From: a virus
Taxonomy: Duplodnaviria; Heunggongvirae; Uroviricota; Caudoviricetes
DNA: 6,485 nucleotides
Virus record (IMG/VR): IMGVR_UViG_2660238548_000012
Strand: one strand, 5' to 3'
Part shown: in pieces, positions 1-6,023 of the stretch
Position numbering within the stretch: the stretch's first letter is position 1
How the letters are laid out: each line of letters begins with the position of its first letter
Notes under the pieces: generated by a model
The model's database searches: none
What the model was told of the DNA's origin: nothing
Seen by the model: only the letters and a program-made list of their open reading frames with translations
Translations under genes and position numbers: made by a program

Positions 1-269
1 GGCTTAAGGAAGCCGGATTACTGGCATCAACAGGGAGTACTGGCGACTCGTATGACAACGCGATGGCTGAGAGCATCAATGGTCTTTACAAAGCGGAGGT
101 AATACACCGTAAGAGCTGGAAAAACCGGACAGAAGTGGAACTGGCCACACTAACGTGGGTGGACTGGTATAACAATCGACGATTGCTGGAAAGGCTGGGC
201 CATATTCCTCCGGCAGAAGCAGAAAAAGCTTATTATGCTTCCATCGGAAATAATGATCTGGCAGCCTGA
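1..269 (+). CDS. IS3-family transposase OrfB, C-terminal part (5' partial)
   Basis: Frame open from window start (codons from position 3); translation ...GSTGDSYDNAMAESINGLYKAEVIHRKSWKNRTEVELATLTWVDWYNNRRLLERLGHIPPAEAEKAYY... contains the conserved DDE-region D-x-YDNA-x-ES and YNxxR motifs of IS3-family transposases; stop at 267-269. Confidence 0.85.
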   Translation, partial: LKEAGLLASTGSTGDSYDNAMAESINGLYKAEVIHRKSWKNRTEVELATLTWVDWYNNRRLLERLGHIPPAEAEKAYYASIGNNDLAA

Positions 270-311
270 GTTCACAGATAAAATACTCTCCAGGAAACCC
301 GGGGCGGTTCA
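1..311 (+). mobile_element. Right end of an IS3-family insertion sequence (IS629/IS1203/IS3411-like), truncated by the window edge
   Basis: Transposase reading frame runs into the window and ends at 269. Terminal sequence ending ...CCCGGGGCGGTTCA at 311 (reverse complement TGAACCGCCCCGGGTTTCC...) is a typical IS3-family TG...CA inverted-repeat end. The P reading frame diverges from lambda P exactly at this junction. Specific IS name is from memory. Confidence 0.8.
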
Positions 312-982
312 GCTTTGATTTCTGCGATCTTCGCCAGAGCCTGTGCACGATTTAGAGGTCTACCGCCCATGACAGGAAGTTGTTTTACTGGTTCAGGTAT
401 AGCCTCACCACGGTTAATTCGTGCGGTCATACAGGACAGTTCATCGGCAGCCTTGCGCCGTAATTCCGCATCAGTAAGCGCATTGGCCCGCATGTTCTGA
501 TACAGGTTGGTAACCAGCCAGTAGTGCGCGTTTGATTTCCACGGATAAGACTCCGCATCCGGATACAGGCCTCGCTTCCGGAAATACTCGTAAACCATAT
601 CAACCAGCTCGCTGACGTTTGGCAGTCCGGCGATAACGGATGCTTCTTCCCGGCACCATGCAACAAACTGCCCGGGTGATGGCAGAAATGGTCGATTCTG
701 CCGACGGGCTACGCGCATTCCTGCGTTAACCTGTTCCATTGTGGTGATCCCGTTTTCCCGGAAAGCCAGAACCCACTGGCGGCGGATTTCGTTCAGTTCG
801 TTCTGGTCACGGTTAGCCAGGCTCGCCGGGAAAGTTGCCAGTAACTGGCTGAACACACCGTTGATGATCTGCGCTACCTGCTGTACCTGAGGCTTTTCGT
901 CGTACTGTTCCGGCATGTTGTTGGCGATCCGACGCATCTGCTCACGGTCAAAGTTAACCATCTGTGCGGCGATGTTTTTCAT
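272..982 (-). CDS. P: Lambda-type replication protein P (DnaB helicase loader), C-terminus replaced by IS-derived codons
   Basis: 236-aa ORF; about the first 224 residues (MKNIAAQMVNFDREQMRRIANNMPEQYDEKPQVQQ...AKIAEIKA) match lambda P as recalled. The last 12 residues (EPPRVSWRVFYL) and the stop are encoded within the IS terminal repeat (272..311). ATG at 982 overlaps the O stop (ATGA). Confidence 0.88.
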   Translation of the reverse strand: MKNIAAQMVNFDREQMRRIANNMPEQYDEKPQVQQVAQIINGVFSQLLATFPASLANRDQNELNEIRRQWVLAFRENGITTMEQVNAGMRVARRQNRPFLPSPGQFVAWCREEASVIAGLPNVSELVDMVYEYFRKRGLYPDAESYPWKSNAHYWLVTNLYQNMRANALTDAELRRKAADELSCMTARINRGEAIPEPVKQLPVMGGRPLNRAQALAKIAEIKAEPPRVSWRVFYL

Positions 983-2323: not shown

Positions 2324-3676
<1,353 letters not shown>

Positions 3677-3726: not shown

Positions 3727-3806
3727 ACAATGGAGTTTGTTTTTCACGCCCCTTTTTACAATATTTCTTGTTTACAACATACAATCTTCCTTGTAATTTT
3801 AAGCCA
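3727..3806 (+). promoter_or_regulatory. Left operator of 434 type (OL3 3727..3740, OL2 3758..3771, OL1 3781..3794) with PL promoter (-35 tttaca 3771..3776, -10 about 3794..3799, start near 3806)
   Basis: Three ACAA-N6-TTGT sites: acaatggagtttgt, acaatatttcttgt, acaatcttccttgt. Downstream transcript start region atcagcaggacgcactgacc matches the lambda PL leader. Confidence 0.85.
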
Positions 3807-3839: not shown

Positions 3840-3870
3840 GGCTCTTAAAAATTAAGCCCTGAAGAAGGGC
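3840..3870 (+). promoter_or_regulatory. nutL site (boxA-like GGCTCTTA 3840..3847; boxB GCCCTGAAGAAGGGC 3856..3870)
   Basis: boxB hairpin is identical to lambda nutL boxB; boxA has G in place of the usual first C. Confidence 0.85.
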
Positions 3871-4027: not shown

Positions 4028-4351
4028 ATGGATGCACAAACACGCCGCCGCGAACGTCGCGCAGAGAAACAGGCTCAATGGAAAGCAGCAAATCCCCTGT
4101 TGGTTGGGGTAAGCGCTAAACCAGTTAACCGCCCTATTCTCTCGCTGAATCGCAAACCGAAATCACGAGTAGAAAGCGCACTGAATCCGATAGACCTTAC
4201 GGTGCTGGCTGAATACCACGAACAGATTGAAAGCAACCTGCAACGTATTGAGCGCAAGAATCATCGAGTTTGGTATAGCAAGCCAGGTGAGTTCGGTATA
4301 ACTTGTCAAGGAAGACAAAAGGTTAAAGGGGAATCCATTCCATTGGCATGA
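4028..4351 (+). CDS. N: Antitermination protein N
   Basis: 107-aa protein MDAQTRRRERRAEKQAQWKAANPLLVGVSAKPVNRPILSLNRKPKSRVESALNPIDLTVLAEYHEQIESNLQRIERKNHRVWYSKPGEFGITCQGRQKVKGESIPLA; arginine-rich boxB-binding N-terminus. The 151-aa track ORF is an upstream extension over the leader. Confidence 0.95.
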   Translation: MDAQTRRRERRAEKQAQWKAANPLLVGVSAKPVNRPILSLNRKPKSRVESALNPIDLTVLAEYHEQIESNLQRIERKNHRVWYSKPGEFGITCQGRQKVKGESIPLA

Positions 4352-4359
4352 GGTACGTA

Positions 4360-5229
4360 ATGAAGAAGATTGATTACAAGTCCATACCAAAACCAATAGA
4401 CTCAGCATCAGAGCGAAAAAAACACAAAAAAGAGGCTGAAAAATTAGCAAATTATATCAGTTTTATTAGAAACAATGCTCACGGCGATGGCGACAAGAAG
4501 TTGCTTTCAGATGCTCGGACCCAAGCGTTCGGTATACTTCGTAAGCAGATGCAATATCGTCTTCATCCTGGCTACATAATTGAAATTCGCCCTACTGAAA
4601 GACAATTGTTCTTATTAAACTCTGTCTTTGACTTTGTAAACGTAGTTGGAGATCTTATCGACAGGTCTGTAGATAAGGATCCTGATACAAATAGTTTTCT
4701 TCTAACAAATAAAGAATACTTATATGGTAAATTCGGTATAAACGGATGGCAAAAATATGTACGCTTCTTACGTGCATTCGTTGATGCGTATAAAAATTCC
4801 GACATGATTTATACATATTTGCCTGGTGGTGATAATTGTACGCTTTCGGCAGACAATAGAATATTCATACCTGTACTTGGTCTTGGGCTGATTAATGCAG
4901 TAAATGAAAAAGATGTTATAATTGTTAAGCAGTGGCGAAAATATGAGGGATATAGATATCTGCCATGCTTTGATATATTAAAAATACAGAATAAATTCTA
5001 TGTAAAAATTAAATATAAAGAAGATATTTTCTTCCTCAGAAAAAACATAGATCTTTTACAAGAACTTTCTGGTACAATAGATGTCATCTTAGGTTCTAGG
5101 TTTATAAAAGAACTGAAAGAAAGCAGGTCTTTCTCTCGTGTAGAGATAAGCGAGTCAGAGTTATGGGGTATATCAAATAATCCTGTAAACCACGCTCACC
5201 AACGAAACCCAAACAAAAAGTGGTCATAA
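4360..5229 (+). CDS. Hypothetical protein (289 aa), AT-rich cargo gene in the N-proximal slot where lambda carries sieB/ral; function unknown, candidate exclusion/defence protein
   Basis: Long uninterrupted ORF with GAGG Shine-Dalgarno 6 nt upstream of the ATG at 4360 (alternative in-frame ATG at 4348 overlaps the N stop). Strongly AT-rich with Lys/Ile/Asn/Tyr-rich composition, unlike the flanking lambda-like genes. No transmembrane segment and no motif I can assign. Confidence 0.7.
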   Translation: MKKIDYKSIPKPIDSASERKKHKKEAEKLANYISFIRNNAHGDGDKKLLSDARTQAFGILRKQMQYRLHPGYIIEIRPTERQLFLLNSVFDFVNVVGDLIDRSVDKDPDTNSFLLTNKEYLYGKFGINGWQKYVRFLRAFVDAYKNSDMIYTYLPGGDNCTLSADNRIFIPVLGLGLINAVNEKDVIIVKQWRKYEGYRYLPCFDILKIQNKFYVKIKYKEDIFFLRKNIDLLQELSGTIDVILGSRFIKELKESRSFSRVEISESELWGISNNPVNHAHQRNPNKKWS

Positions 5230-5278
5230 CCCGCTCAGGCGGATTTCATTTTCACGCAAACAACAGAATAAACACAGC

Positions 5279-5311
5279 GCTGTGTATTCATTCCAACGAG
5301 TGAATACACGG
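5279..5311 (+). other. Near-perfect inverted repeat / RNA hairpin (about 13-bp stem, 4-nt loop) with no following T-tract
   Basis: ctgtgtattcattc-caac-gagtgaatacacg: arms 5280..5293 and 5298..5310 are complementary apart from one G-U position. Confidence 0.5.
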
Positions 5312-5371
5312 AGCAATGTCGCTCGTAACTAAACAGGAGCCGACTTGTTCTGATTATTGGAAATCTTCTTT

Positions 5372-5397
5372 GCCCTCCAAGATGAGGGCGATTTTTT
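5372..5397 (+). terminator. Rho-independent terminator candidate between the cargo gene and ea10
   Basis: GC stem gccctc / gagggc (5372..5377 and 5384..5389) with loop caagat, followed by gattttttat. Confidence 0.6.
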
Positions 5398-5417
5398 ATC
5401 TGTGAGGATATGAACAG

Positions 5418-5786: not shown

Positions 5787-5858
5787 GCGCGGCGTTACCG
5801 CATACCAATTACGCTTCACTCGAGGCGTTTTTCGTTATGTATAAATAAGGAGCACACC

Positions 5859-6023
5859 ATGCAATATGCCATTGCAGGGTGGCCTGTTGCTGGCTGCCCT
5901 TCCGAATCTTTACTTGAACGAATCACCCGTAAATTACGTGACGGATGGAAACGCCTTATCGACATACTTAATCAGCCAGGAGTCCCAAAAAATGGATCAA
6001 ACAATTATGGCTATCCAGACTAA
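5859..6023 (+). CDS. cIII: cIII (inhibitor of FtsH-mediated degradation of CII)
   Basis: 54-aa protein [54 protein letters not shown] matches lambda CIII including the amphipathic helix region; strong AAGGAG Shine-Dalgarno 6 nt upstream. Not listed in the ORF track, where the overlapping 89-aa frame masks it. Confidence 0.92.
   Translation: MQYAIAGWPVAGCPSESLLERITRKLRDGWKRLIDILNQPGVPKNGSNNYGYPD

What the first reader, a model, noticed from the sequence alone, without database searches (positions are those of the whole stretch)
4348..5229. AT-rich 289-aa gene of unknown function in the sieB/ral slot downstream of N
Between N and ea10, where lambda carries superinfection exclusion (sieB/esc) and restriction alleviation (ral), this element has a single long ORF. 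It is much more AT-rich than the flanking N, cIII, kil and gam genes, and the compositional block starts at the N stop and ends just before the lambda-like hairpin/terminator, so it looks like a horizontally acquired cassette. It has no membrane-spanning segment, so it is not SieB-like, and I recognise no catalytic motif. Genes at this position in lambdoid prophages are typically host-protective or anti-defence functions, which makes this the best candidate for a new abortive-infection or exclusion determinant.
Basis: partly seen in the sequence, partly recalled or inferred. Interest (0 to 1): 0.85.

Follow-up and report, generated by a model that had tools for sequence, protein, structure and literature searches.

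The report
Phage 434 long Nun-tailed, TnpB-like protein
The AT-rich gene after N is phage 434's uncharacterised 289-aa protein, whose last 14 residues are the RNA-polymerase-jamming peptide of the HK022 exclusion factor Nun and whose body is predicted to fold like the nucleic-acid-recognition half of a TnpB/Cas12 nuclease, so it is probably a re-targeted transcription-arrest weapon and not an unknown.

Summary
The ORF is real: 4360-5229, 289 aa, GC 0.35 against 0.49 for N, under purifying selection. It is 99.9% identical to phage 434 gene CPT_434_48, named in GenBank "Nun C-terminal peptide-containing protein" but never studied; RefSeq E. coli copies say "hypothetical protein".

- **Tail.** The last 14 residues (VNHAHQRNPNKKWS) are identical to HK022/HK75 Nun and include every residue that cryo-EM and mutagenesis tie to RNA polymerase arrest. 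Homologs of 40-68% identity keep those residues through synonymous codon changes.
- **Relatives.** Distant relatives carry a different conserved tail (GGLPSLGKRR) and sit in defence islands, including between brxC and pglX of BREX operons.
- **Specificity.** The long gene occupies the nun slot in a put-type phage and follows N in N/nut phages, which carry λ boxB themselves (25/31 against 0/75 for classical nun). Its target therefore cannot be λ nut.

Best reading: a Nun-type arrest factor with a new targeting module, probably used in phage competition. The target and the timing of expression are unknown.

The parts
4360..5229 (+). Complete gene for the 289-aa 'long Nun-tailed' protein (stop codon 5227-5229). 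An upstream in-frame ATG at 4348 overlaps the N stop.
   Evidence: ORF list. 99.9% identical to phage 434 CPT_434_48 and 100% to E. coli WP_001299183.1. PHROG 12139 matches over its full length. Purifying selection.
4350..4353 (+). GAGG ribosome-binding site, 6 nt before the ATG at 4360 and overlapping the N stop codon (4349-4351). This indicates translational coupling to N.
   Evidence: Read directly from the sequence. Annotated as an RBS in the 434 record.
4360..4566 (+). N-terminal extension, residues 1-69: a basic (pI 10.05), lysine-rich helical hairpin (helices 16-38 and 43-65). It is found only in the Nun-tailed clade.
   Evidence: AF2 model, alignment A3, pI. The basic residues are not conserved as an arginine-rich motif.
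4567..5019 (+). Central body, residues 70-220: a beta-strand, a helical bundle and a beta-sheet, predicted to fold like a TnpB/Cas12 WED-REC-WED lobe. Family-wide conserved positions include P78, Q82, F90, C160-S161-x-S163, Y200 and F204.
5020..5136 (+). Long C-terminal helix, residues 221-259, ending in the family-conserved motif E-S-(R/K)-S-(F/Y)-(S/A)-R-V-(E/D) at residues 254-262.
   Evidence: AF2 secondary structure, with lower confidence of 55-73. The motif is shared with the distant GGLPSLGKRR-tail family.
5137..5184 (+). Flexible linker, residues 260-275 (pLDDT below 50), between the body and the arrest peptide.
   Evidence: AF2 confidence profile.
5185..5226 (+). Nun arrest peptide, residues 276-289 (VNHAHQRNPNKKWS), equivalent to HK022 Nun residues 96-109.
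   Evidence: 14/14 identity to HK75/HK022 Nun and to PDB 6alg chain N. PHROG 5632 C-terminal hit. The residues N97, H98, H100, R102, K106, K107 and W108 defined by Kang et al. 2017 are all present. They are conserved with synonymous codon turnover in divergent homologs.
5185..5395 (+). Mosaic DNA block shared with HK75/HK022-type phages: the last 14 codons plus the downstream non-coding region. It is about 93-97% identical, depending on the span compared.
   Evidence: Pairwise alignment, megablast hit over query positions 837-882, blastn of the downstream 170 nt at 93.5%.
5230..5254 (+). Degenerate hairpin plus T-rich run directly after the stop codon (CCCGCTCAGGCGGATTTCATTTT). In divergent long genes the same position holds a strong intrinsic terminator.
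   Evidence: Comparison of the downstream sequences of L005, L009, L099, L003, L083 and L126.
5370..5399 (+). Intrinsic terminator (8-bp stem followed by a T-run). It is the first consensus terminator downstream of pL, so N and this gene form the pre-terminator, immediate-early unit.
   Evidence: Terminator scan. Annotated as a terminator in the 434 record.
4028..4351 (+). Lambda-type antiterminator gene N (107 aa), immediately upstream.
   Evidence: Pfam N36 hit, E 2.8e-26. 434 annotation.
3856..3870 (+). Lambda-type nutL boxB (GCCCTGAAGAAGGGC) on the same transcript, about 490 nt upstream of the 4360 start (measured 471 nt from the start of the open frame). This is the RNA that classical Nun targets.
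   Evidence: Sequence. nutL annotated in the 434 record. Present upstream of 25/31 long genes and 0/75 classical nun genes.
3756..3785 (+). pL promoter (TTACAA-18-TACAAT), the only sigma-70-like promoter found upstream of the gene.
   Evidence: Lenient promoter scan. pL and oL annotated in the 434 record.

Best explanation
The gene encodes a chimeric transcription-arrest factor. A folded body of about 260 residues is built around a RuvC-less TnpB/Cas12-type WED-REC lobe with an extra basic helical hairpin. That body is joined by a flexible linker of about 16 residues to the 14-residue C-terminal peptide of HK022 Nun.

Proposed mechanism:
1. The body recognises a specific nucleic acid or complex on the target: nascent RNA, upstream duplex DNA, or a factor-modified elongation complex.
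2. This raises the local concentration of the tail.
3. [quoted passage not shown]

Because 434 and most other carriers themselves use lambda-type N and boxB, the target is not lambda nut. The most likely role is competition with other phages or mobile elements. In 434 the protein is made together with N as an immediate-early pL product.

Shown here: identity and selective conservation of the arrest peptide; predicted fold of the body; absence of a nuclease domain and of a guide-RNA partner; gene position and co-transcription signals.

Inferred: RNA polymerase arrest by this protein, a targeting function for the body, and an exclusion role.
For: **Tail**
- The tail is 14/14 identical to Nun and hits the C-terminal end of PHROG 5632.
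- Kang et al. 2017 (PMC5386594) show that Nun residues 87-109 hold all known arrest determinants, that N97, H98, H100, R102, K106, K107, W108 and the S109 carboxylate make the contacts, that N103 makes no important contact, and that loss of the last 13 residues abolishes RNA polymerase binding. Their complexes carried no nut RNA, so the peptide works without it.
- In homologs of 40-68% identity found by protein homology, exactly those residues are invariant. Changes fall at positions 101 and 103-105, and the invariant residues use different synonymous codons.
- The tail region is predicted to be disordered, as expected for a peptide that must thread into the polymerase.

**Body**
- AF2 model: pLDDT 81, pTM 0.71.

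**Context**
- The gene sits in the nun slot behind an HK022-type pL-putL in L003.
- It sits directly after N in 434, L005, L009 and L099.
- In L009 it lies in tandem with a classical ARM-bearing Nun-type ORF.
- Lambda boxB lies upstream of 25/31 long genes and 0/75 classical nun genes.
- Distant relatives are embedded in BREX operons and a DISARM-like island.
Against: - There is no experimental evidence for this protein. Only a GenBank product name exists, and the genome announcement does not mention the gene.
- Nun H93 and R94, which contact the upstream duplex, are not conserved: they are N-N in 434.
- Two members end at W and lack the final Ser.
- The TnpB relationship rests on a predicted structure. 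Pfam and PDB sequence searches find nothing, and hhalign against ISDra2 TnpB gives only a 26-residue match at E 0.035 and 1.5% probability. Foldseek E-values are all above 0.001.
- No promoter of its own was found, so expression in a repressed 434 lysogen, which is how Nun acts, is unproven.
- In 434 the tail lies in a DNA block recently exchanged with HK022-type phages. For this particular allele the exact tail sequence reflects recombination as much as long-term retention.
- The loci fetched from IMG/VR were selected by a pattern that forces the invariant residues. Only the homology-derived members count as a test.
Confidence: 0.5

Rival explanations
1. It is a lytic-phase transcription modulator, not a prophage exclusion factor. 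Made with N immediately after infection or induction, it would arrest host polymerases or the phage's own, for example as host shut-off, as a brake on early transcription, or to silence resident prophages, satellites or defence genes. N-modified complexes on the phage genome would be spared.
For: - In 434 the gene has no detectable promoter of its own, is translationally coupled to N, and lies before the first terminator downstream of pL.
- Most carriers encode N and lambda boxB.
- The Nun peptide arrests complexes that lack nut when Nun is at saturating concentration.
Against: - In the put-type phage L003 the gene replaces nun itself. Nun is a prophage-expressed exclusion factor; for this I have only the title of King et al. 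2000, seen.
- Every divergent copy is insulated by a strong terminator directly after the stop codon, as a moron would be.
- Whether N-modified complexes resist the peptide was not tested here.
- General shut-off fits poorly with a temperate lifestyle.
Confidence: 0.2
2. The body carries the real function: a DNA- or RNA-recognition accessory of the kind found in BREX and other defence islands. On this view the Nun peptide is a passenger, acquired because a mosaic junction happens to lie in the last 14 codons, and contributes little.
For: - In 434, DNA identity with HK75 starts exactly at the first tail codon and continues through the terminator region.
- The distant family has the same body with a different tail and sits between brxC and pglX.
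Against: - Homologs of 40-68% identity keep the arrest residues while the codons change synonymously and the flanking DNA differs. That is hard to explain without selection on the peptide.
- No member of the lambdoid clade lacks the tail.
Confidence: 0.12
3. It is an RNA-guided TnpB derivative, like the TldR repressors, that uses a guide RNA to find DNA targets and then blocks transcription.
For: - The body has a TnpB/Cas12-like fold.
- Phage-encoded, nuclease-dead TnpB derivatives that act as RNA-guided repressors are known (titles and abstracts).
Against: - At 289 aa, with only a helix and a disordered tail after the WED sheet, there is no RuvC-like or zinc-finger domain, whereas TldRs keep an inactivated RuvC.
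- The only conserved non-coding element next to divergent copies is a terminator.
- In L003 the next ORF starts 45 nt after the stop, and the BREX-embedded relatives have intergenic gaps of only 22-34 nt.
- Rfam finds no RNA family nearby.
Confidence: 0.04
4. It is a decaying or functionless mosaic remnant.
For: - Some prophage copies are truncated or start late (L039, L062, L105, L078; P0002 and P0008).
- According to the blast results, lambda imm434 hybrids grow without the gene.
Against: - Purifying selection: dN/dS 0.23, and pN 0.19 against pS 0.83.
- Intact copies in 83 complete E. coli genomes.
- A confidently predicted fold.
Confidence: 0.03

Closest known systems
HK022/HK75 Nun transcription termination (arrest) factor (PHROG 5632; PDB 6ALG chain N)
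   Same: - The C-terminal 14 residues are identical and include all known arrest determinants.
- The tail is disordered and C-terminal.
- The gene lies in the early-left operon next to pL and is followed by a terminator.
- In one put-type phage it occupies exactly the nun position.
   Different: [quoted passage not shown]
- It has no arginine-rich boxB-binding motif.
- The residues equivalent to Nun H93 and R94 are not conserved.
- It is carried mostly by phages that themselves use lambda N and boxB, so its specificity must differ.
- In 434 it has no detectable promoter of its own.
TnpB / Cas12f / Cas12n / Fanzor RNA-guided nucleases (IS200/IS605 OrfB superfamily), e.g. ISDra2 TnpB 8H1J
   Different: - No RuvC domain, no zinc-finger or target-nucleic-acid-binding domain, and no catalytic D-E-D residues.
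- No associated guide RNA and no transposon ends.
- No significant sequence-profile similarity.
TldR (TnpB-like nuclease-dead repressors) and other exapted TnpB/Cas12 transcription regulators
   Same: It would be a domesticated TnpB-like scaffold, encoded by a temperate phage, that acts on transcription.
   Different: TldRs keep an inactivated RuvC-like domain and a guide RNA, and they block initiation by binding DNA. Here the nuclease lobe is missing altogether, and the predicted effector is a peptide that jams elongating polymerase.
Lambda SieB/Esc, Ral and RexAB (accessory genes of the same genomic neighbourhood)
   Same: It is an AT-rich accessory gene in or beside the pL operon of a lambdoid phage, in the slot where lambda carries exclusion and anti-restriction genes.
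   Different: It has no membrane segment and no sequence or fold similarity to these proteins, and the predicted mechanism is different.

Membership tests
HK022 Nun family | C-terminal arrest peptide with N97, H98, H100, R102, K106, K107 and W108 at the extreme C-terminus | tested here: met
   Residues 276-289 are identical to Nun 96-109. The residue roles come from PMC5386594. The residues are conserved in divergent homologs.
HK022 Nun family | N-terminal arginine-rich motif that binds lambda nut boxB RNA | tested here: not met
   There is no similarity to Nun outside the tail. The N-terminal basic stretch is lysine-rich and not conserved among homologs. Carriers have lambda boxB on their own transcript.
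HK022 Nun family | Small protein of about 110 aa without a folded body | tested here: not met
   The protein is 289 aa with a confidently predicted globular body.
HK022 Nun family | Gene just downstream of pL, in place of N, in a put-type phage and followed by a terminator | tested here: inconclusive
   This is met in L003 and L075. In 434 the gene follows N instead.
HK022 Nun family | Expressed from the repressed prophage and excludes superinfecting phage by arresting its transcription | not testable with these tools
   No promoter of its own was found. No experimental data exist.
TnpB/Cas12 (IS200/IS605 OrfB) | WED-REC recognition-lobe fold | tested here: met
TnpB/Cas12 (IS200/IS605 OrfB) | RuvC nuclease domain with catalytic D-E-D residues | tested here: not met
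   After the WED sheet there is only helix 221-259 and a disordered tail. A GTIDV stretch at 237-241 resembles RuvC motif I but is predicted helical and is not conserved in the wider family.
TnpB/Cas12 (IS200/IS605 OrfB) | Zinc-finger / target-nucleic-acid-binding domain | tested here: not met
   There is no Cys/His cluster and no sequence length left for it.
TnpB/Cas12 (IS200/IS605 OrfB) | Adjacent guide (omega) RNA | tested here: not met
   Only a terminator is conserved downstream. Rfam finds nothing nearby. The BREX-embedded relatives have tight intergenic gaps.
TnpB/Cas12 (IS200/IS605 OrfB) | Sequence-profile membership (Pfam OrfB_IS605 and related models) | tested here: not met
   No Pfam hit for any of 23 members, no PDB profile hit, and hhalign probability 1.5%.
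TldR nuclease-dead TnpB repressors | Retained but inactivated RuvC-like domain together with a guide RNA | tested here: not met
   Same evidence as the RuvC and guide-RNA rows above.
Known anti-phage defence systems (PADLOC-DB 2.0) | Match to a defence-protein HMM | tested here: not met
   There are no hits for the 434 protein or for any of 23 family members. The neighbours of the distant relatives are bona fide BrxA, BrxB, BrxC and PglX.
SieB-type superinfection exclusion | Inner-membrane protein with transmembrane segments | tested here: not met
   The maximum 19-residue hydropathy is 1.38, and the model is soluble.

The most novel reading that the evidence does not exclude
RuvC-less, TnpB-derived recognition lobes form a previously unrecognised family of targeting modules that carry interchangeable C-terminal effector peptides. 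In lambdoid phages the peptide is the Nun RNA-polymerase-arrest peptide, giving sequence- or structure-specific transcription-arrest immunity with specificities other than lambda nut. In Betaproteobacteria the peptide is a different conserved one (GGLPSLGKRR), fixed between brxC and pglX of BREX operons. Both peptides also occur on small proteins. That would make 'targeting body plus terminal peptide' a general modular design for defence factors, and it would be a new route of TnpB domestication.
Probability: 0.3. Interest if true: 0.85.

Novelty: new variant of a known kind. Interest (0 to 1): 0.7.

Why it matters
Nun is the textbook case of a phage protein that jams RNA polymerase, but it has been treated as a one-off tied to lambda nut.

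- **A portable arrest peptide.** This gene shows the same peptide mounted on a completely different, folded targeting body. It occurs in a classic laboratory phage (434) and in about 2% of complete E. coli genomes. This suggests that transcription-arrest exclusion is modular and can be re-targeted.
- **A new form of TnpB domestication.** If the body is truly TnpB-derived, it would be the first example known to me of the TnpB recognition lobe being kept without any nuclease lobe and without a guide RNA.
- **A link to BREX.** The family connects lambdoid exclusion genes to an uncharacterised fixed component of some BREX operons.
- **Readily testable.** The hypothesis can be tested with existing Nun assays, Nun-resistant rpoC alleles, and phage 434 genetics.

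Tried and rejected
**Searches that found nothing**
- Pfam, NCBIfam and PADLOC scans of the protein and of 23 family members gave no hits.
- The PDB sequence search found only the Nun tail, and the family profile found nothing.
- Rfam found nothing relevant except the cIII thermoregulator.
- Literature searches for Nun with 434, Nun-like with prophage, and TnpB with Nun returned nothing.

- The first AF2 run, with 5 sequences, was too poor to use (pLDDT 47). It was repeated with 29 sequences.
- The afdb50 fold library was unavailable.
The rerun used only the tail of the distant family.
- King et al. 2000, on nun promoters, is not held. Only its title could be used.

**Ideas considered and rejected**
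- The N-terminal ERKKHKKEAEKLANY stretch as an N/Nun-type arginine-rich motif: it is not conserved among homologs and gives no significant alignment.
- SGTIDVILGS (236-245) as a RuvC motif I remnant: it is predicted helical and is not conserved in the wider family.
- hhalign against the verified ISDra2 TnpB N-terminus is not significant, so homology to TnpB is claimed at the fold level only.
- A guide-RNA partner: only terminators are conserved next to the gene.
- A promoter of the gene's own inside N: none was found, even with lenient criteria.
- A third body type carrying the Nun tail: the 226-230-aa class seen in IMG/VR is the long family, either truncated or with a GTG start that my first-ATG rule missed.
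Full report
**1. Observation**

The window is the immunity and early-left region of phage 434 or a near-identical E. coli prophage. It contains the 434 repressor, hex, pL/oL, a lambda-type nutL and N, then the ORF in question, followed by ea10 (DUF2528), cIII and kil.

The ORF runs 4348-5229. The start used in GenBank and RefSeq is the ATG at 4360, which gives 289 aa. A GAGG lies 6 nt upstream and overlaps the N stop codon.

The ORF has GC 0.346 (GC3 0.30), against 0.488 for N. It has no hydrophobic segment. It evolves as a coding gene: dN/dS is 0.23 among close alleles, and against a 68%-identical homolog pN is 0.19 with pS saturated at 0.83. It occurs in 117 of 5426 complete E. coli genomes.

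- The 289-aa product starts at 4360, not 4348.
- The low-GC block ends at about 5185, inside the gene.

**2. The tail**

PHROGs placed the whole protein in family 12139 (unknown function). It also matched the last 20 residues to the C-terminal end of family 5632, 'Nun-like transcription termination factor'. The final 14 residues, VNHAHQRNPNKKWS, are identical to HK75/HK022 Nun and to chain N of PDB 6ALG.

The phage 434 GenBank record already names the product 'Nun C-terminal peptide-containing protein'. The genome announcement does not mention the gene, RefSeq calls it hypothetical, and I found no paper on it.

Kang et al. 2017 (PMC5386594) establish the following:
- Only Nun residues 87-109 are ordered in the elongation complex, and they hold all known arrest determinants.
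[quoted passage not shown] R102 pairs with the C-terminal carboxylate. K106, K107 and W108 sit in a pocket between the hybrid and the downstream DNA. N103 makes no important contact.
- Nun lacking its last 13 residues does not bind RNA polymerase.
- The complexes studied had no nut RNA.

All of these residues are present in the 434 protein. H93 and R94, which touch the upstream duplex, are not.

**3. Is the tail an accident of mosaicism?**

In 434, near-identity to HK75 at the DNA level begins exactly at the first tail codon (about 5185) and continues through the downstream terminator region to about 5395. So a recombination junction lies inside the gene.

The tail is nevertheless old in this family. 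Homologs found by protein similarity keep the pattern V-N-H-A-H-x-R-x-x-x-K-K-W. These are P0003 (68% identity), P0036 and P0005 (46-48%), P0004 (42%) and P0006 (36-40%). Amino-acid changes fall only at Nun positions 101 and 103-105. The invariant residues are written with different synonymous codons in different lineages. This is the pattern expected if the arrest contacts are under selection.

A degenerate DNA pattern for the tail found at least 120 IMG/VR contigs. In them the peptide sits on only two kinds of protein: classical Nun-sized ORFs of about 80-120 aa, and the roughly 289-aa type.

**4. The body**

- **Sequence searches.** Pfam, NCBIfam, PADLOC and PDB sequence searches give nothing for the body.
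- **Distant relatives.** An exhaustive profile search found about 20 distant proteins of 213-326 aa that match residues of about 72-227 and also the motif just before the tail (E-S-R-S-F-S-R-V-E against S-K-x-Y-S-R-V-D-F). They end in a different conserved peptide, …GGLPSLGKRR, and lack the N-terminal 70 residues.
- **Model.** With a 29-sequence alignment AlphaFold gave a good model: pLDDT 81, pTM 0.71, residues 10-225 mostly above 85. It shows a basic helical hairpin (16-65), a beta-strand, a helical bundle (80-145), a beta-sheet (152-219), a long helix (221-259) and a disordered segment (260-289) that carries the Nun peptide.
- **Sequence-level test.** hhalign against the deposited ISDra2 TnpB N-terminus aligns only residues 71-96 to TnpB residues 6-31. 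That is the expected place, but the match is not significant.

I therefore claim fold-level similarity to the WED-REC recognition lobe, not demonstrated homology. The protein has no room for a RuvC or zinc-finger domain.

**5. No guide RNA**

The only conserved non-coding feature next to divergent copies is an intrinsic terminator 5-40 nt after the stop codon. In 434 and HK75 this hairpin is degenerate, and a second terminator lies at 5370-5391. In L003 the next ORF starts 45 nt after the stop, the BREX-embedded relatives have gaps of 22-34 nt, and Rfam finds nothing nearby.

**6. Context**

- **After N.** In 434, L005, L009 and L099 the gene follows an N gene directly.
- **In the nun slot.** In L003 and L075 there is no N. 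The gene follows a cI-like repressor and a pL-putL region that is almost identical to HK75's, which is exactly where nun sits.
- **Both types together.** L009 carries the long gene and, after its terminator, an uncalled 102-aa classical Nun-type ORF with an arginine-rich motif and its own Nun tail. This argues that the two have different specificities.
- **Own nut sites.** A lambda-type boxB lies within 1.5 kb upstream of 25 of 31 long genes and of 0 of 75 classical nun genes. Carriers of the long gene use the system that Nun attacks, so the long protein cannot share Nun's target without harming its own phage.
- **Transcription in 434.** I found no sigma-70-like promoter between pL and the gene, and no terminator between hex and 5370. 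The gene is probably made together with N from pL. Expression in a repressed lysogen would need read-through from pRM or a non-consensus promoter.
- **Distant relatives.** One subclade is fixed between brxC and pglX in operons whose neighbours match PADLOC BrxA, BrxB, BrxC and PglX at E from 1e-73 to 0. Another member lies beside NYN, RelA/SpoT, PLD and DISARM-like helicase genes. Genome hits are in Dechloromonas, Burkholderia, Paraburkholderia and Neisseria.

**7. Mechanism**

The best-supported reading is a two-part arrest factor. The body docks on something specific to the target transcription complex, and the flexible linker lets the Nun peptide enter the polymerase cleft and block translocation.

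- **Shown:** identity and selective conservation of the peptide; the predicted fold; the absence of a nuclease lobe and of a guide RNA; the gene's position.
- **Inferred:** that the peptide works in this context, that the body provides targeting, and that the purpose is phage competition.

I put about 0.65 on tail-mediated RNA polymerase arrest and about 0.45-0.5 on the whole statement including the exclusion role.

Rivals:
- A lytic-phase modulator of host or phage transcription (0.2). The coupling to N favours it.
- A body-centred function with the tail as a passenger (0.12). The codon-level conservation of the tail weakens it.
- An RNA-guided TldR-like repressor (0.04).
- A functionless remnant (0.03).

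**8. Comparison with known families and novelty**

The protein works like Nun at its C-terminus, but it fails two defining Nun features: the arginine-rich boxB-binding motif and the small size with no folded body. It resembles TnpB/Cas12 only in the recognition lobe and fails every other TnpB criterion. It is not in PADLOC.

The Nun-peptide observation itself is already public as a GenBank product name. As far as my searches reach, the following are new:
- conservation of the tail across a divergent family;
- the TnpB-like fold of the body;
- the contrast with classical nun in nut ownership;
- the tandem long-plus-short arrangement in L009;
- the link to a BREX-embedded family with a second portable tail.

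I class it as a new variant of a known kind and score interest at 0.7.

Noticed in passing
L006-L008, L131-L133 (e.g. L131:8001-8867); also L010:2153-2992: Distant relatives of the body, carrying the tail …GGLPSLGKRR instead of the Nun peptide, are a fixed gene between brxC and pglX in BREX operons. The neighbours match PADLOC BrxA, BrxB, BrxC and PglX at E from 1e-73 to 0. Three unannotated genes follow (376 aa, 423 aa and an HSP70-like 610 aa), then a second MmeI-type methyltransferase. Another member sits beside NYN, RelA/SpoT, PLD and DISARM-like genes. The family itself is absent from PADLOC.
   Followed up: partly
L143:4857-5168 (Bradyrhizobium hipponense); genome scan: The GGLPSLGK[GRH]R tail matched 90 genomic stretches, but only 7 encode the family body. 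In L143 the tail ends a small 103-aa ORF directly downstream of a 721-aa AAA_15/AAA_21 ATPase. This second tail may therefore be a portable peptide on several bodies, like the Nun tail. What it binds is unknown.
   Followed up: partly
L009:9037-9345: An uncalled 102-aa classical Nun-type ORF lies just after the long gene and its terminator. It has an arginine-rich stretch (KGRRRALRMQQRRD) and the tail VVNHAHQRRPNKKWS. One prophage therefore carries two Nun-tailed proteins in tandem behind an N gene.
   Followed up: partly
window 63-269 (+) and 272-982 (-): The left end of the window encodes the C-terminal part of an IS3-family transposase (Pfam rve_3 and rve_2). It abuts the 3' end of the replication gene P, whose last residues differ from those of phage 434. 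The window is therefore a 434-like prophage interrupted by an IS element, not the phage itself. A 100%-identical E. coli copy of the ORF has an IS3 element between kil and gam instead.
   Followed up: partly
L003:2870-3005: A metagenomic lambdoid phage has a pL-putL region almost identical to HK75's but carries the long gene instead of nun. It has a different (250-aa) repressor and a ParB-like gene in the replication region.
   Followed up: partly
L005, L009, L099, L003, L083, L126 (first 40 nt after the stop of the long gene); window 5230-5254: Every divergent long gene is followed almost immediately by a strong intrinsic terminator. In 434 and HK75 the equivalent hairpin is degenerate (CCCGCTCAGGCGGATTTCATTTT) and a second terminator 140 nt further on takes over.
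   Followed up: yes
L039, L062, L105, L067 (IMG/VR prophages); P0002, P0008, P0037, P0038: Several E. coli prophage copies are shortened at the N-terminus (the match starts at residue 20 and the open frame is 276-284 codons) or survive only as fragments. P0008 is a 96-aa protein that joins an unrelated 23-residue N-terminus to the last 73 residues, including the tail.
   Followed up: no
window 3200-3676 (+): The gene after cI, in the rex slot, is the 434 hex gene ('repressor protection protein'), PHROG 2651. The GenBank note says the published start codon was wrong. The longest ORF overlaps the end of cI by 76 nt.
   Followed up: no
window 5846-5904 (+): The Rfam lambda cIII thermoregulator element (RF01804) matches at 88.5 bits at the start of cIII. 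It is also present in HK75.
   Followed up: no
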